DNA of 64,000 bases, taken from the NCBI GenBank assembly GCA_035559995.1, contig DATMAM010000009.1:3855-67854 (forward strand). Direction: 5' to 3'. Both the position numbers and the translations under genes were made by a program. The notes below the pieces were generated by a model. That model was not told the DNA's origin and ran no database searches. It was given only the letters and a program-made list of their open reading frames with translations. The DNA is from Candidatus Acidiferrales bacterium. GTDB lineage: Bacteria > Desulfobacterota > Binatia > UBA9968. Below are positions 321 through 43,629 of this stretch, in pieces. The stretch's first letter is position 1; each line of letters opens with the position of its first letter.

Positions 321-332
321 AAGCGCAAAAGC

Positions 333-356
333 GGGCGCGCCGAGTTCGGCGCGCCC
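333..356 (+). terminator. Perfect 10-bp GC stem (GGGCGCGCCG-agtt-CGGCGCGCCC) 13 nt after the cupin stop; terminator-like hairpin without a clear U-tract
   Basis: Inverted repeat read directly from the sequence; no downstream T-run. Confidence 0.35.
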
Positions 357-527
357 CGCCGGTCGTTCCTCAGGATTCCCGTTTTACCTCCCGATAAGCC
401 TGCTCAAAGACGGCGAGGTCCTGAGGGCTCGCGCGCCAACCTTTCCGCCGCGTGCCCTTGACCTGGCCGACCCCTTTCCGCTACGAGAAGAGCGAGCGGG
501 GCACCGACGTCATTAAGGAGAAAGCGT

Positions 528-1118
528 ATGCCTAGAATTCAGGGCGTTACCAGGGAAAACGCGCCGGAGGAGGCGCGGGCGGTATTCGAAAAGCAGGAAA
601 AGCGCTACGGCGCGATTCTTAACACCGCGCCCATCTATGCGCTCAGGCCGACTATCATGAAGGGAGTGCAGGCGCTGGCGGAAGGCATCGAGCTTTCCGG
701 GCTGATCGCACCCGACCTCAGACACCTCGTTTGCATGAAAGTCGCCGCCATCAACGGCTGCCCGTACTGAATCGACATTAACGCGTCCAGTGGGATGCAA
801 AACGGCGCCTCGCCGGAGAAAGTCAGCGCCGCGCTCGGCGACTACCGAAAGAGCCCCCATCTTTCGCTGCGCGAGCGCCTGGCGCTCGAGCTGGCGGAGC
901 GGATGACCTACACCAACAAGAGAGTCACCGACCGGTTCTTCAATCGGCTCAAACGCTCTTTCAGCGATGAGGAGCTGGTCGAGCTGGCGGCGATCATCGC
1001 GCTGGAGAATTTCCGCAGCAAATTCAACCCGGTGTTTGCCGTGGAGTCGCAAAACTTTTGCCCGCTGCCGGTCGTTCGGGAGGCGGCCGCGGCCGCCACG
1101 GCGCGGCTACGACAATGA
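528..1118 (+). CDS. AhpD/carboxymuconolactone-decarboxylase-family protein with a single in-frame TGA (768-770) at the second Cys of the CxxC motif (AAINGCPY-TGA-IDIN); candidate selenoprotein (CxxU), alternatively a nonsense pseudogene
   Basis: Track ORFs 528..770 and 795..1118 are in the same frame (both = 0 mod 3) and separated only by the TGA. The LVCMKVAAINGCPY[C]xDxx motif is typical of the AhpD family. A strong RBS (AAGGAGAAAGCGTATG) sits at the 5' end and none precedes ATG 795. Confidence 0.55.
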
Positions 1119-17939: not shown

Positions 17940-17969
17940 TTGACAGCGCCGGACCGGGAGCAGTATGGG
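17940..17969 (+). promoter_or_regulatory. Sigma-70-like promoter candidate for tctC (TTGACA-N18-TATGGG)
   Basis: Consensus -35 hexamer plus 4/6 -10, 28 nt upstream of ATG 17998. Confidence 0.3.
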
Positions 17970-17997
17970 ACAGACAGACCAACCCCGGGGGCATCGT

Positions 17998-19074
17998 ATG
18001 GCCAGGATCGTAAATTGGCTCGTTGTGTCGGGCTTGGCGCTCGCGCTCGCAACGCCGGCATTGGGCGCGGCGCCGTATTACGAGGGAAAAACCATCGAGG
18101 TGATCATTCCCTTCCCGGTTGCCGGCGGATCGGATATCTGGATCCGCACGATCGGTCCCTATCTCGAGAAGCAAATACCGGGCAATCCAAAGTTCAGCTA
18201 CCGCAACATCGCTGGCGGCAGGGGCATCCCGGGGATGATGGAGTTTGCGCTCAAAGCAAAACCCGACGGCCTCATGGTTCTTGTCACCTCGGCGACCAAT
18301 TACTTTCCGGTTCTCTTGGGCGACAAAGCGGCGAAGTACGATTTTCGCCAGTGGAAGCCGCTCCTCGTGAATCCCGTCGGCGGCGTCATGTACGTTTCCC
18401 CGACTTCAGGCGTCAAGAGGGTAGAAGATCTCGCCCACGCCAAGGACCTGATCTACGGCGGCATCAGCGCGATCGGGCTCGACATGATTCCCTTGATTAC
18501 GTTCGAGCTCCTGGAGCTCGACGCCAAGGGAGTGCTCGGCTTTAAGGGAAGAGGCGAGGCGCGCATTGCGTTCGAGCGCGGCGAAACCAATATCGATTAT
18601 CAGACGACGCCCGCGTACAACGCCACCGTGCTCCCTCTAATCAAGGAAGGCAAAGCGATCCCTTTGATGACTTTTGGCCAGCTCGACGAGAGCGGCCAAA
18701 TCGTTCGCGACCCGGCCGTGCCCGATCTGCTTACGGTTCCGGAAGTTTACGAGAAGCTCAAAGGGAAAAAACCCGCAGGCCGGTTCTGGGACACGTACAA
18801 GACCTTTATGCCTTCGGCGTTTGCCGTGCAGAAGATACTTTGGGTCAAAGGAGACGCGCCCGCCGAGGTCCTGCGGTCTTTTTATGAAGCTGCGGACCGC
18901 CTCGCGAAGGACAAGGACTTCGTCGCCAAAACCGACAAGGTCCTGGGCGGCTACCCCCTGTTGCGCGGCGATCGGCTGGAAAAAACCATCCAGCAAGCCT
19001 TTCAGATCGACCCGGACACGCAGCGCTTCGTGAGGGAATGGGTGAGTCGAAAGTATCGCGTCAAGTTCGACTAG
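17998..19074 (+). CDS. tctC: Tripartite tricarboxylate transporter substrate-binding protein (Bug/TctC family)
   Basis: Signal peptide plus Bug-family core (GGSDIW...NIAGGRGIPGMM). Start ATG 17998 (MARIVNWLVV). Confidence 0.8.
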   Translation: MARIVNWLVVSGLALALATPALGAAPYYEGKTIEVIIPFPVAGGSDIWIRTIGPYLEKQIPGNPKFSYRNIAGGRGIPGMMEFALKAKPDGLMVLVTSATNYFPVLLGDKAAKYDFRQWKPLLVNPVGGVMYVSPTSGVKRVEDLAHAKDLIYGGISAIGLDMIPLITFELLELDAKGVLGFKGRGEARIAFERGETNIDYQTTPAYNATVLPLIKEGKAIPLMTFGQLDESGQIVRDPAVPDLLTVPEVYEKLKGKKPAGRFWDTYKTFMPSAFAVQKILWVKGDAPAEVLRSFYEAADRLAKDKDFVAKTDKVLGGYPLLRGDRLEKTIQQAFQIDPDTQRFVREWVSRKYRVKFD

Positions 19075-25397: not shown

Positions 25398-26171
25398 CTA
25401 CTCCCACAGGCCCTCCGGCAGAGGAAGGCCGGCGAGGTCGGCGGGGCTGAGCCGGGCGGCGGGATCGATGCCGAGGCGCTCGAGCACGGCGATCAACTGG
25501 CGCGCGTGCTGCGCCGAATGCCAGGTCGAGCGCTCGAGCAGCCGGTGCAGCGAGGGCGCGCCATAAAAAGCCTTCACGTTTTGCCGGCACGACTTGTCTT
25601 CGAGCTTCGCCCACCAGCCCTTGAGCCTCTCGATCACGCGATCGCCGTACGCCGCGATCTCTCCGGCGTTCGTGCACGCCTCCTCTTTCGGCTGAAAGTT
25701 GACCGCCGCTAGCGAGTACTCGGCGCCCTCGGCGGCCACCTCGAGAAAAGCCTCGGCGATCCGAAAAATGTGGTGGCCCAGCTGCCGGATCGAGCGCGGG
25801 CGATTCTCTATCGCGCGCTCGTTCAGCCGGCCGGCCGGGATCTGGCGGATACAGCGCTCGGCGGCGCTAAGCACAATCGCCCATTTCTCGACCAGGATTT
25901 CGGGCGCAAGCGGGGTATGCGCGGTGCCCTGGAGCCCTACGAACTCGGCTACGTCTTCCAGGTTCTGGCAGAAGATGTACTGATCGCCCTTCGCGAGCAC
26001 GGGCACGGTCGCAACGCCGAGCCTCAGCAGCCTTTCGCGCGCCCCGAGATCGTTGACGATGTCGACGGCGGCGAAGTCGATGCCTTTTTGCGAAAGGAAC
26101 TCTTTCGTTCTAAGGCAACTGCTTCAGCCGGGCTGCGTGAAGAGGATGAACTGCTCGCCGGCGGCTTTCAT
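25398..26171 (-). CDS. Glutaredoxin-fold (UxxC) domain fused to DinB/YfiT-like domain; in-frame TGA at 26126..26124 (codon 16) is a candidate selenocysteine
   Basis: Translating the minus strand from ATG 26171 gives MKAAGEQFILFTQPG-[TGA]-SSCLRTKEFLSQKGIDFAAVDIVNDLGARERLLRLGVATVPVLAKGDQYIF... This is the beta-alpha-beta thioredoxin fold with the active-site dipeptide at the CxxC position and the Grx cis-Pro TVP motif. It runs in frame (39 codons) into track ORF 25398..26006, which is the DinB_2-like domain. Confidence 0.5.
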
Positions 26172-42011: not shown

Positions 42012-42128
42012 TCGGTCCGGAGGATTGGCTGAGGACAGAGCTGCGGGAAGTGAAGTACCCGCCCGGCGGTTTGTCGCCATGGGACCGATGCGCGGGCGAC
42101 CGCGAGGCGCTCAAGCGATGAGGTTTCG

Positions 42129-43232
42129 ATGAAAGAGCAGACGAGCTTTTGGAGCAGGACAACGCCGTACGAGGCGTGGATCGAGTCGCTGGGCCTGCCG
42201 GTGTACAAGGGCTATTACATCGAGGATCCGAGAAAGCTTGAGCTGGGATGGTGGGAGGAGCGCAAGTGCTTCGGCGGCTTTCTACAGCTTGCCGGCCAGG
42301 AGGGAGTGACCGGAGCTTATGTCACGGAGATACCTCCGGGCGAGAGCCTGCCGCCGTTTCGGATGGCCTTGGACGAAGTGATTTATGTCCTTGAAGGCCG
42401 CGGCTTGACGACGGTCCGCGCAGGCTCAGCCGAGAGGACCTTCGAATGGGATAAGCGAAGCCTCTTCCGCGTTCCGGGCGGCTGGAGCTACCGGTTGAGA
42501 AACGCTCAGGGAAGCAAGCCCGTGAGGCTCCTCCACTCAAACTACCTCCCGCTTGCCTTGTCTGCTCTCCCCGATCCGGATTTTTTCTTCAAGAACGTCC
42601 CCGCCAGCCGCGGCGGCCTCGAGCGGGACGGCGGCTCCGACGTTTACTCCCACGCCAGCGTCGTTCGCCTTGTGCTTCCCGGAAGCGACGAGCAGCGCAA
42701 CGTCTGGACGGGCAATTTTTTCCCCGACATGAGCGCCTGGGATCGCCTGGATCCGTTTAGGGGAAGAGGCGCGGGCGGGCGCGTCGTCTGGGTCGGCTTT
42801 CCCGGCTCTCCGATCACCGGCCACATGTCGGTCTTTCCCGCGCAAAGCTATAAGAAGGCGCATCGCCATGGACCTGGATACATGATCGTGATCCCCGCCG
42901 GAGAGGGCTACTCGATCATGTGGCCCGAAGGGGGAGAGAAAGTCGTGATTCCGTGGCGCGAGGGAAGCATCTTTGTGCCGCCCAACCGCTGGTTTCACCA
43001 GCACTTCAACGTGAACTCCAAGCCGGCACGCTATCTCGCCATTCATCCGCCGCTGGGCTTTCGCGGCATCAGCGAAAAGATCGAAGACCGCGCGCGCGAT
43101 CAGATCGAATATCCGGACGAGGACCCTTGGATTCGCGCGAAGTTCGAAGAGGAGCTGGCGCAAAGAGGCCTCCGCTCGTTGATGCCCGAAGAGGCTTACC
43201 GCAACCGCGATTTCGAGTGGGCTTACCAATGA
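42129..43232 (+). CDS. Bicupin protein (two cupin barrels; dioxygenase/isomerase-like)
   Basis: Two cupin modules (EIPPGESLPPFRMALDEVIYVLEGRG ... HGPGYMIVIPAGEGYSIMWPEGGE). Confidence 0.6.
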   Translation: MKEQTSFWSRTTPYEAWIESLGLPVYKGYYIEDPRKLELGWWEERKCFGGFLQLAGQEGVTGAYVTEIPPGESLPPFRMALDEVIYVLEGRGLTTVRAGSAERTFEWDKRSLFRVPGGWSYRLRNAQGSKPVRLLHSNYLPLALSALPDPDFFFKNVPASRGGLERDGGSDVYSHASVVRLVLPGSDEQRNVWTGNFFPDMSAWDRLDPFRGRGAGGRVVWVGFPGSPITGHMSVFPAQSYKKAHRHGPGYMIVIPAGEGYSIMWPEGGEKVVIPWREGSIFVPPNRWFHQHFNVNSKPARYLAIHPPLGFRGISEKIEDRARDQIEYPDEDPWIRAKFEEELAQRGLRSLMPEEAYRNRDFEWAYQ

Positions 43233-43629
43233 GCGAATGACGGGCGCAAGGCCGATGAGTTGCGCGGGCTGAGCTGCTCGAACTTCGCCGGTGCTTTGCT
43301 TGGAACTTTCGCCTGCCGACCCCGACACAAACGGGCGAATCCCTTCCGGTTTCACGCCCGCCCCCTGGCCGGCCTCTGCTGCCGCGGAGCGGATGGGTGC
43401 GGCCGACGCCAAGGCGCTGGAGGTATTCCTCGACGAATACCGATGCCGCCGATGGGCCGCTCTCTCCACGCCGGCGCGGAGATCTTCGTGCTCGCCGAGC
43501 CGTGGTGACCGTGTGTGGACCTTGAAAATCCGCGGCGCGGTTTTTTTGCGATCGGCCACGTCGTGTCACTCCATGAGAGACGCATGAGTTGCCCGGACAA
43601 AGTTGACTTATCGTGAGCTACCGGAATAG

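What the first reader, a model, noticed from the sequence alone, without database searches (positions are those of the whole stretch)
528..1118. AhpD-family CxxU candidate selenoprotein: in-frame TGA at the second Cys of the AhpD motif
Track ORFs 528..770 and 795..1118 share one frame and are separated only by TGA 768-770. Read through, the protein is a single 196-aa AhpD/carboxymuconolactone-decarboxylase-like domain. Its signature LVCMKVAAINGCPY-[TGA]-IDIN places the TGA exactly where the family's second catalytic Cys (CxxC) sits. The 5' end has a strong RBS; the downstream ATG 795 has none. Sec-containing AhpD-like proteins are an established selenoprotein family. This is the second thiol-oxidoreductase gene in this window with a Cys-position TGA (the other is the Grx-DinB gene at 26171), so the two observations support each other: the organism is very likely a Sec decoder.
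Basis: partly seen in the sequence, partly recalled or inferred. Interest (0 to 1): 0.7.

Follow-up and report, generated by a model that had tools for sequence, protein, structure and literature searches.

The report
AhpD-like selenoprotein gene, split by annotators
The two short ORFs at 528-1118 are one gene for a 196-residue AhpD-type redox protein whose in-frame TGA very probably encodes selenocysteine; this is a correct call, but it belongs to a selenoprotein family known since 2005, so it is mainly an annotation fix.

Summary
ORFs 528-770 and 795-1118 share one frame and are separated only by TGA 768-770. Read through, the protein is a single AhpD/CMD-fold domain with a C78-P-Y-U81 motif.

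- **TGA conservation:** all 56 close relatives (46-80% identity; Binatia-type and Dehalococcoidia MAGs) have TGA at this codon.
- **Sec/Cys pair:** the nearest full-length homologues (31-38% identity) have Cys there in 22 of 23.
- **SECIS-like hairpin:** a hairpin at 783-798, 12 nt after the UGA with loop AGUG, forms in 57/57 sequences. It shows compensatory changes. It is the gene's peak of synonymous-site conservation. It is absent from 17/17 Cys-encoding homologues.
- **Not a reassigned code:** TGA is a normal stop in 20 of 45 genes in the window.
- **Second gene:** a Grx-DinB gene (26171-25398, minus strand) has a conserved U-S-S-C TGA in 80/80 relatives.
- **Untestable:** no Sec machinery lies in the window, so that point remains open.

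GenBank lists the gene as two hypothetical proteins. AhpD-like CxxU selenoproteins are established, so this is a new member (an uncatalogued Sec-only clade) of a known kind.

The parts
515..520 (+). Shine-Dalgarno AAGGAG, 7 nt upstream of ATG 528
   Evidence: Read directly from the sequence. No comparable motif precedes ATG 795.
528..1118 (+). Single gene for a 196-residue AhpD/CMD-fold (COG2128/YciW-like) selenoprotein, including Sec codon 81 and the stop TGA at 1116-1118
   Evidence: Translation. Pfam CMD spans the TGA. NCBIfam NF053654 aligns full length at 172.9 bits. tblastn matches residues 1-196 in relatives. The AF2 model of a 73%-identical orthologue has pLDDT 97.1 and TM 0.74-0.79 to AhpD-family structures.
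759..761 (+). Cys78 codon (TGC), first residue of the C-x-x-U redox motif
   Evidence: Nearly invariant in alignments A2/A3. Aligns with the first Cys of CxxC in solved homologues.
768..770 (+). In-frame UGA, predicted selenocysteine codon (U81)
   Evidence: TGA in 57/57 orthologues. Cys in 22/23 of the nearest full-length homologues, in 17 distant loci and in PDB homologues.
774..782 (+). Codons D83-I84-N85. Asp83 and Asn85 are invariant in the Sec clade, and Asn occupies the position of the His in CxxCxxxH of classical AhpD
   Evidence: D and N are 57/57. PDB homologues Atu0492 and PA0269 have His at that position.
783..798 (+). SECIS-like hairpin: stem GCGUCC (783-788) / GGAUGC (793-798), apical loop AGUG (789-792), starting 12 nt after the UGA. 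The 'second ORF' ATG 795-797 lies inside its 3' arm
   Evidence: The core 5 bp pairs in 57/57 sequences and 3-4 pairs show compensatory changes. Slid controls give 17-56% pairing, and 0/500 shuffles reach the observed covariation. Loop G790 and G792 are invariant. Synonymous codon identity is 0.93 here against a gene mean of 0.51. The hairpin is absent in 17/17 Cys-encoding homologues.
25398..26171 (-). Supporting evidence, not part of the gene: a second candidate selenoprotein, glutaredoxin-DinB fusion, motif FTQPG-U-SSC with TGA at 26126-26124 and a downstream hairpin at about 26117-26081
   Evidence: Translation. Pfam Glutaredoxin (residues 9-66, across the TGA) plus DinB_2. Hairpin z-score -2.1. 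TGA in 80/80 metagenomic relatives at 61-68% identity, with the following ~45 nt almost invariant.

Best explanation
Positions 528-1118 encode one 196-residue, all-helical AhpD/carboxymuconolactone-decarboxylase-fold protein of the COG2128/YciW-like branch. UGA 768-770 is recoded as selenocysteine. The mRNA hairpin at 783-798 (12 nt after the UGA, small apical loop AGUG) acts as a bacterial SECIS. It recruits SelB-GTP-Sec-tRNA(Sec) to the ribosome while it is at the UGA, so translation continues to the true stop at 1116-1118. The product carries a C78-P-Y-U81 redox pair at the N-terminus of a helix. By analogy with AhpD-family enzymes, the selenolate at position 81 is the attacking nucleophile and Cys78 resolves the intermediate into a selenenylsulfide. 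The protein is then re-reduced by a cellular thiol system. It is therefore a thiol/selenol oxidoreductase, most likely a peroxide- or disulfide-reducing one. What is shown: gene unity, the Sec/Cys pairing, a conserved RNA hairpin under RNA-level selection, the fold, and a second Sec-type gene on the same contig. What is inferred: actual Sec insertion, the SelB interaction, the roles of the individual residues, and the substrate.
For: 1. One gene. The CMD domain spans the TGA, and NF053654 aligns over 1-176. Residues just after the TGA are conserved in frame (D83 and N85 in 57/57). ATG 795 is missing in 7/57 orthologues and lacks an SD.
2. Sec/Cys pair. TGA is present in 57/57 orthologues from at least two lineage groups. 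Every database hit above ~50% identity is an 80-, 102- or 107-aa half. The nearest full-length homologues have Cys in 22/23. Solved structures have CxxC aligned.
3. SECIS. The hairpin forms in 57/57 with compensatory changes and clean slid controls. It is the synonymous-site conservation peak of the gene. It is absent from the Cys forms. It fits the published description of a bacterial SECIS as a stem-loop immediately downstream of the UGA with a small apical loop containing G (PMC1088965).
4. TGA is otherwise a stop: 20/45 genes, GC 62.7%.
5. A second gene on the contig has a conserved UxxC TGA.
6. Fold. pLDDT is 97.1, the CxxU sits at the helix 79-91 N-terminus, and TM is 0.74-0.79 to Bmp8, AhpD and peroxidase-related proteins.
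Against: No selA, selB, selD or tRNA-Sec is present in the 64-kb window, in 2.9 kb of extra upstream sequence, or in any of the 80 fetched relatives' loci. Sec-decoding capacity of this organism is therefore inferred, not shown. No Rfam family matches the hairpin. The single-sequence fold of the region is no better than shuffles (z = -0.47), so the hairpin is supported only comparatively. The stem is short (5-6 bp). The protein falls below the curated cut-offs of TIGR01926 (50 vs 81.8) and NF053654 (173 vs 310), and it lacks the His of CxxCxxxH. Function cannot simply be transferred from AhpD. There is no conserved gene neighbourhood to indicate a partner or substrate.
Confidence: 0.9

Rival explanations
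1. The TGA is a genuine stop. The locus is either a dead (pseudogenised) AhpD-like gene or two separately translated polypeptides of 80 and 107 residues, as GenBank annotates it (VNL14_01930 and VNL14_01935).
For: This is the public annotation, and it is how gene callers treat hundreds of relatives. An ATG exists at 795. No Sec machinery was found in the sequence available.
Against: A pseudogene would not keep the same TGA and both in-frame halves across 57 loci at 46-80% identity. The eight codons between the TGA and ATG 795 are conserved as protein (D83 and N85 in 57/57), match the Cys homologues' C-I-D-x-x-S, and belong to the same helix. ATG 795 is absent in 7/57 orthologues and has no SD. 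A split at the middle of the CxxC motif would destroy the active site.
Confidence: 0.04
2. The UGA is read through, but not as selenocysteine: either the genetic code is reassigned (UGA = Trp or Gly), or near-cognate/suppressor tRNA inserts Trp or Cys, with the hairpin merely slowing termination.
For: Some JGI gene calls of orthologues (P0001-P0003, P0006) translate the codon as W. No tRNA-Sec was seen.
Against: TGA terminates 20 of 45 Pfam-supported genes in this 62.7%-GC window, so the code is standard. The W calls are therefore pipeline artefacts. The codon sits exactly on a catalytic Cys of a redox motif, in a family with documented Sec forms (PMC1088965, PMC2398784). Trp there would abolish the redox pair. 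The hairpin has the position and G-containing small loop of a bacterial SECIS and is absent in Cys forms. A second UxxC-type TGA gene lies on the same contig.
Confidence: 0.04
3. The TGA is a sequencing or assembly error in this MAG, and the real codon is TGC/TGT.
For: The source is a metagenome-assembled genome. One related database protein (P0005) looks frameshifted.
Against: The same TGA appears in 56 independent assemblies from different studies, and no orthologue above 40% identity has a Cys codon there.
Confidence: 0.01

Closest known systems
AhpD-like CxxU selenoprotein family ('AhpD-like protein', COG2128/TIGR01926; Zhang et al. 2005 Sargasso Sea, PMC1088965; 'AhpD-like 1' in the GOS study, PMC2398784; listed in the 2026 review PMC13188914)
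   Same: AhpD/CMD fold. CxxU motif with Sec at the second Cys position. Many Cys-containing homologues. A SECIS-type stem-loop just after the UGA with G in a small apical loop. Predicted thiol-redox function. Environmental, uncultured hosts.
   Different: The window protein scores below the TIGR01926 cut-off (50.3 vs 81.8 bits), so it is a divergent branch. Its clade (>=46% identity) appears to be Sec-only. It comes from soil/groundwater Binatia-type and Dehalococcoidia MAGs, not marine plankton. I could not compare directly with the published representative sequences, which were not available to the tools.
NCBIfam NF053654 'GroundWater_YciW: YciW-related (seleno)protein'
   Same: Best-scoring curated model. 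The alignment covers the whole length (1-176 to 1-175 of 179) at 172.9 bits. It has the same architecture and is curated as a (seleno)protein.
   Different: The score is far below the equivalog cut-off of 310. None of five TGA-bearing relatives or two Cys homologues reach it (124-174 bits). This is a sister clade, not a member, so annotation pipelines that rely on that model cannot name it.
Mycobacterium tuberculosis-type AhpD (TIGR00777) and other solved AhpD proteins (6k40, 6e8l, 7xw1)
   Same: All-helical AhpD fold (TM 0.74-0.75). The redox pair sits at the N-terminus of a helix. From my own knowledge of the M. tuberculosis enzyme (Koshkin et al. 2003/2004, not re-read here), the second Cys (Cys133) is the nucleophile that attacks AhpC, which is the position Sec occupies here.
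   Different: TIGR00777 scores 19.3 against a cut-off of 191.95. The His of CxxCxxxH is replaced by an invariant Asn85. No ahpC or lipoamide-system gene is adjacent.
Debrominase Bmp8 (PDB 6ohi/6ohj), a CMD-family thiol-dependent reductive dehalogenase
   Same: Top structural match (TM 0.74-0.77) and a strong profile match (114 bits over 6-176). Its A-G-C-M-Y-C motif aligns with G-C-P-Y-U.
   Different: Only 23-24% identity. There are no bmp-type halogenation genes nearby. Nothing here points to a halogenated substrate.
Escherichia coli fdhF-type bacterial SECIS (minimal upper stem-loop)
   Same: A short hairpin inside the coding sequence with G-U in a 4-nt apical loop. It starts 12 nt after the UGA; the E. 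coli figure of 11 nt is from my own knowledge of the fdhF minihelix and was not re-checked here.
   Different: The stem sequence is different and no bulged U is evident. SelB binding is untested. No Rfam model exists for comparison.

Membership tests
Pfam PF02627 CMD / AhpD superfamily | Domain score above the Pfam gathering threshold | tested here: met
   44.4 bits against a cut-off of 23 for the read-through protein, residues 41-122 spanning the TGA.
Pfam PF02627 CMD / AhpD superfamily | All-alpha AhpD fold | tested here: met
   AF2 model of orthologue P0001 (73% identical) has pLDDT 97.1. Foldseek TM is 0.74-0.79 to Bmp8, 2prr, 6k40 and 3c1l. The window protein itself was not modelled.
AhpD-like CxxU selenoprotein family (Zhang et al. 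2005/2008) | In-frame TGA aligned with a conserved Cys of homologues (Sec/Cys pair), with flanks conserved | tested here: met
   TGA in 57/57 orthologues. Cys in 22/23 nearest full-length homologues, in 17 distant loci and in PDB homologues.
AhpD-like CxxU selenoprotein family (Zhang et al. 2005/2008) | CxxU redox motif | tested here: met
   C78-P-Y-U81. C-P-[YF]-U in 56 of 57 sequences (C-P-S-U in L054).
AhpD-like CxxU selenoprotein family (Zhang et al. 2005/2008) | Bacterial SECIS-like stem-loop immediately downstream of the UGA, with a small apical loop containing G | tested here: met
   Hairpin 783-798 with loop AGUG, conserved with covariation. Criterion as worded in PMC1088965.
AhpD-like CxxU selenoprotein family (Zhang et al. 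2005/2008) | Membership of TIGR01926 / COG2128, the domain identifiers given for the family | tested here: not met
   TIGR01926 scores 50.3 bits against a cut-off of 81.8, so the relation is at superfamily level only. COG2128 assignment is not testable with these tools.
AhpD-like CxxU selenoprotein family (Zhang et al. 2005/2008) | Host encodes the Sec machinery (selA, selB, selC, selD) | not testable with these tools
   None is in the window, in the extra 2.9 kb, or in the fetched loci. A second conserved Sec-type gene on the contig is indirect support.
NCBIfam NF053654 YciW-related (seleno)protein (equivalog) | Score at or above the curated cut-off of 310 bits | tested here: not met
   172.9 bits for the window protein and 124-174 bits for seven relatives.
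AhpD sensu stricto (TIGR00777; M. tuberculosis type) | Score above cut-off and a CxxCxxxH proton-relay histidine | tested here: not met
   19.3 bits against 191.95. The position of the His is an invariant Asn85.
AhpD sensu stricto (TIGR00777; M. tuberculosis type) | Genomic association with ahpC | tested here: not met
   The neighbours are cupin, HAD-like, glyoxalase and rhomboid genes. No recurrent neighbour appears in the 57 loci.

The most novel reading that the evidence does not exclude
This is an obligately Sec-dependent branch of the AhpD/YciW-like superfamily. No Cys orthologue above about 40% identity exists among 1.84 billion representative proteins, and an invariant U-x-D-x-N replaces CxxCxxxH. 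Its closest solved relative by fold is the debrominase Bmp8. It might therefore perform chemistry for which selenium is indispensable, for example halogen abstraction analogous to the Sec-dependent deiodinases or reduction of an unusual oxidant, and not generic peroxide or disulfide reduction.
Probability: 0.08. Interest if true: 0.55.

Novelty: new member of a known kind. Interest (0 to 1): 0.25.

Why it matters
It matters mainly for annotation. The gene is recorded in GenBank as two hypothetical proteins (HWP56627.1 and HWP56628.1). Hundreds of relatives in public protein databases exist only as 80- or 107-residue halves, or with a spurious Trp at the Sec position. No curated NCBIfam model reaches its cut-off for this clade. 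Recognising it adds an abundant, apparently Sec-only clade of AhpD-like selenoproteins in soil and groundwater Binatia-type and Dehalococcoidia genomes. Together with the Grx-DinB gene, it marks this organism as a probable selenium user. It does not change what is understood about selenoproteins or AhpD-family enzymes.

Tried and rejected
- **Rfam.** Scans of the whole window at gathering thresholds and of 700-900 at permissive thresholds found no SECIS family, only tRNA-Phe and a chance Chloroflexi-1 hit.
- **Single-sequence folding of 768-840.** It is not better than shuffles (z = -0.47), so only comparative evidence supports the hairpin.
It pairs fully in 1/57 sequences, with 57% of cells paired. 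Rejected as the SECIS.
- **Sec machinery.** ARAGORN on the window and on 80 loci found nothing. Pfam annotation of 46 window ORFs found nothing. The contig look-up failed for the C-terminal half. For the N-terminal half it gave only 2.9 kb more, with no sel genes.
- **Conserved synteny.** None was found with the window's neighbours. Among relatives the best recurrent neighbour is in 11/57 loci, a common solute-binding protein.
- **TGA reassignment.** Rejected from stop-codon usage.
- **'Full-length' database proteins P0001-3 and P0006 as Cys orthologues.** Rejected, because they carry W at the TGA.
- **A third same-frame TGA junction at 43230-43232.** The downstream translation is not protein-like, so it was rejected.
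- **Literature.** Searches for Binatia plus selenocysteine and for Bmp8 plus debrominase returned nothing. No BSepDB supplements are held.

Full report
**Observation.** The sequence shows ATG at 528 preceded by AAGGAG (515-520). An open frame runs to TGA 768-770, and the same frame continues to the stop TGA at 1116-1118. The ORF list gives 528..770 (80 aa) and 795..1118 (107 aa) in one frame. The read-through product is 196 residues and reads ...LVCMKVAAINGCPY-U-IDINASSGMQ....

**One gene, not two.**
- With Cys substituted for the TGA, Pfam CMD (PF02627) matches residues 41-122 at 44.4 bits, straight across the TGA. The N-terminal half alone falls below threshold, and the C-terminal half matches nothing.
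- NCBIfam's best model, NF053654 'YciW-related (seleno)protein', aligns over the whole length (1-176 to 1-175 of 179) at 172.9 bits.
- In 57 orthologous sequences the codons immediately after the TGA are conserved as protein. Asp83 and Asn85 are invariant, and Ala86 and Ser87 are present in 56/57.
- The ATG at 795 is replaced by GCG or ACG in 7 of 57 sequences, and no Shine-Dalgarno precedes it.

**Sec/Cys pair.**
- A scan of one genome per species returned 80 loci.
- All 56 close relatives (46-80% identity) have TGA at exactly this codon. They are labelled Binatia, 'Deltaproteobacteria', Thermodesulfobacteriota, Dehalococcoidia/SAR202 and a few others.
- The word-indexed protein search found 615 hits. 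Nearly all of the top 120 are 107-residue C-terminal halves.
- The few 'full-length' entries carry W at the position, meaning they were called with a TGA=Trp code. One (P0005) is frameshifted.
- An exhaustive HMMER search of 1.84 billion representatives found that every hit above about 50% identity is a fragment. The nearest full-length proteins are 31-38% identical.
- In an alignment of 23 of those, 22 have Cys at the TGA column, in the motif G-C-x-F-C-I-D.
- Distant loci likewise have TGC/TGT there, and a few independent distant lineages have TGA.
- Solved homologues (Atu0492, PA0269, Bmp8, AhpD) all align their CxxC here.
- The clade at or above 46% identity therefore appears to be Sec-only, while the wider family is Cys.

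**The SECIS.**
That pairs fully in only 1 of 57 sequences.
- The conserved element is a hairpin at 783-798: GCGUCC / AGUG / GGAUGC, starting 12 nt after the UGA.
- Its core five pairs form in 57/57 sequences. Variation includes A-U/G-C/G-U at one pair, C-G to G-C at another, and G-C to U-A and C-G to U-A in the most divergent member.
- Overall, 90.8% of cells are paired, against 17-56% when the 3' arm is slid by 1-3 columns. No shuffle out of 500 reaches the observed covariation.
- Loop positions 790 and 792 are invariant G, although the codon containing 790 changes among Ser, Gly and Arg.
- Among 30 collinear orthologues, synonymous-codon identity peaks at codons 86-90. The value is 0.93, against a gene mean of 0.51 and SD 0.09. 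This is the highest value anywhere in the gene.
- None of 17 Cys-encoding homologues forms the hairpin in that register (mean 2.2 of 5 pairs).
- This fits the published description of bacterial SECIS elements: a stem-loop immediately downstream of the UGA with a small apical loop containing guanosine (PMC1088965).
- Two weaknesses remain. Rfam has no matching family. The isolated sequence does not fold better than shuffles.

**Alternatives.**
- TGA terminates 20 of 45 Pfam-supported genes in this 62.7%-GC window, so a reassigned code is excluded.
- A pseudogene or an assembly error cannot explain an identical TGA in 56 independent assemblies.

**Is the organism a Sec decoder?** This could not be tested directly.
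- The only tRNA in the window is tRNA-Phe.
- Pfam annotation of 46 ORFs found no SelA, SelB or SelD.
- An extra 2.9 kb upstream has none.
- The 80 fetched loci hold no tRNA-Sec.
- Indirect support is strong. The minus-strand gene 26171..25398 reads MKAAGEQFILFTQPG-U-SSCLRTKEF.... Its read-through is Glutaredoxin (residues 9-66, across the TGA) plus DinB_2.
- That gene's TGA is conserved in 80/80 metagenomic relatives at 61-68% identity. The roughly 45 nt after it, including a hairpin ACGAAAG-AGUUY-CUUUCG, are almost invariant.

**Fold and likely mechanism.**
- An AlphaFold model of orthologue P0001 (73% identical) is very confident (pLDDT 97.1). It is all-helical, with Cys78 and position 81 at the N-terminus of helix 79-91.
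- Foldseek places it in the AhpD family. The hits are debrominase Bmp8, 'peroxidase-related' proteins, and Deinococcus and pneumococcal AhpD, with TM 0.74-0.79.
- From my own knowledge of M. tuberculosis AhpD, the second Cys of the motif is the nucleophile. Sec at that position is the expected gain-of-reactivity substitution.
- The likely cycle is attack by the selenolate, resolution by Cys78 to a selenenylsulfide, then re-reduction.
- The classical His of CxxCxxxH is an invariant Asn here. There is no ahpC nearby and no conserved neighbour. The substrate is therefore unknown.

**Comparison with what is known.**
- AhpD-like CxxU selenoproteins were reported from the Sargasso Sea in 2005 (27 sequences, COG2128; PMC1088965).
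- They were among the most abundant families in GOS: AhpD-like 1 had 299 Sec and 902 Cys sequences (PMC2398784).
- The 2026 review lists them under TIGR01926 (PMC13188914).
- The window protein scores below the cut-offs of TIGR01926 (50.3 vs 81.8) and of NF053654 (172.9 vs 310).
- It is best described as an uncatalogued sister clade within a known selenoprotein family.
- GenBank annotates it as two hypothetical proteins, VNL14_01930 and VNL14_01935, in a MAG labelled Candidatus Acidoferrales.

**Verdict.** It is a new member of a known kind. Its value lies in annotation and in marking the organism as a probable selenium user. Interest is low to moderate.

Noticed in passing
window 25398-26171 (minus strand); TGA at 26126-26124; hairpin about 26117-26081: A glutaredoxin-DinB fusion gene has an in-frame TGA at the first Cys of the Grx motif (FTQPG-U-SSC). 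The TGA is conserved in 80/80 metagenomic relatives, and the ~45 nt downstream are almost invariant at the nucleotide level, which implies a strongly constrained SECIS.
   Followed up: partly
database proteins P0001, P0002, P0003, P0006 (orthologues of window 528-1118): Some JGI gene calls translate the conserved TGA as Trp (CPYWIDIN), as if called under a TGA=Trp code. They masquerade as full-length non-Sec orthologues. P0005 is a frameshifted version.
   Followed up: partly
window 1053-1055 (Cys176) and 732-734 (Cys69): A third cysteine in a conserved G-F-C-x-x-P motif near the C-terminus is shared by Sec forms and many Cys homologues (consensus). Cys69 (HLVCMK) is common in the Sec clade. 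Either could be an additional resolving or partner-binding residue.
   Followed up: no
L057 (Myxococcota), L062 (Gemmatimonadales), L075 and L078 (Chloroflexota): Distant AhpD-family homologues (26-35% identity) also carry TGA at or next to the second-Cys position, with different downstream hairpins (for example GGCGC-CGUGA-GCGCC in L062). This suggests independent Cys-to-Sec conversions in the superfamily.
   Followed up: partly
window 323-360: A GC-rich inverted repeat (GGGCGCGCC-GAGTTC-GGCGCGCCC) lies directly after the upstream cupin gene's stop. It may terminate that gene's transcript, giving the AhpD-like gene its own transcription unit. The consensus scan reported neither a terminator at this repeat nor any promoter between it and ATG 528.
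   Followed up: partly
window 43233-43508: A same-frame, high-GC3 open stretch follows the TGA stop of the cupin-domain gene 42054-43232. Its translation is not protein-like, so it is not a third Sec candidate.
   Followed up: yes
window 17944-19074 (plus strand): A 376-residue ORF with coding-like GC3 (0.75) has no Pfam match at E <= 0.001. It sits between a solute-binding protein gene and a TctA transporter gene.
   Followed up: no
whole window / source record: The NCBI record labels the MAG Candidatus Acidoferrales (Acidobacteriota). However, nearly all close relatives of both Sec-type genes come from Binatia-type MAGs, and the gene content (several Amidohydro_2 genes, luciferase-like monooxygenases, TctABC-type and TRAP transporters) is typical of those. 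The taxonomic label may be unreliable.
   Followed up: no
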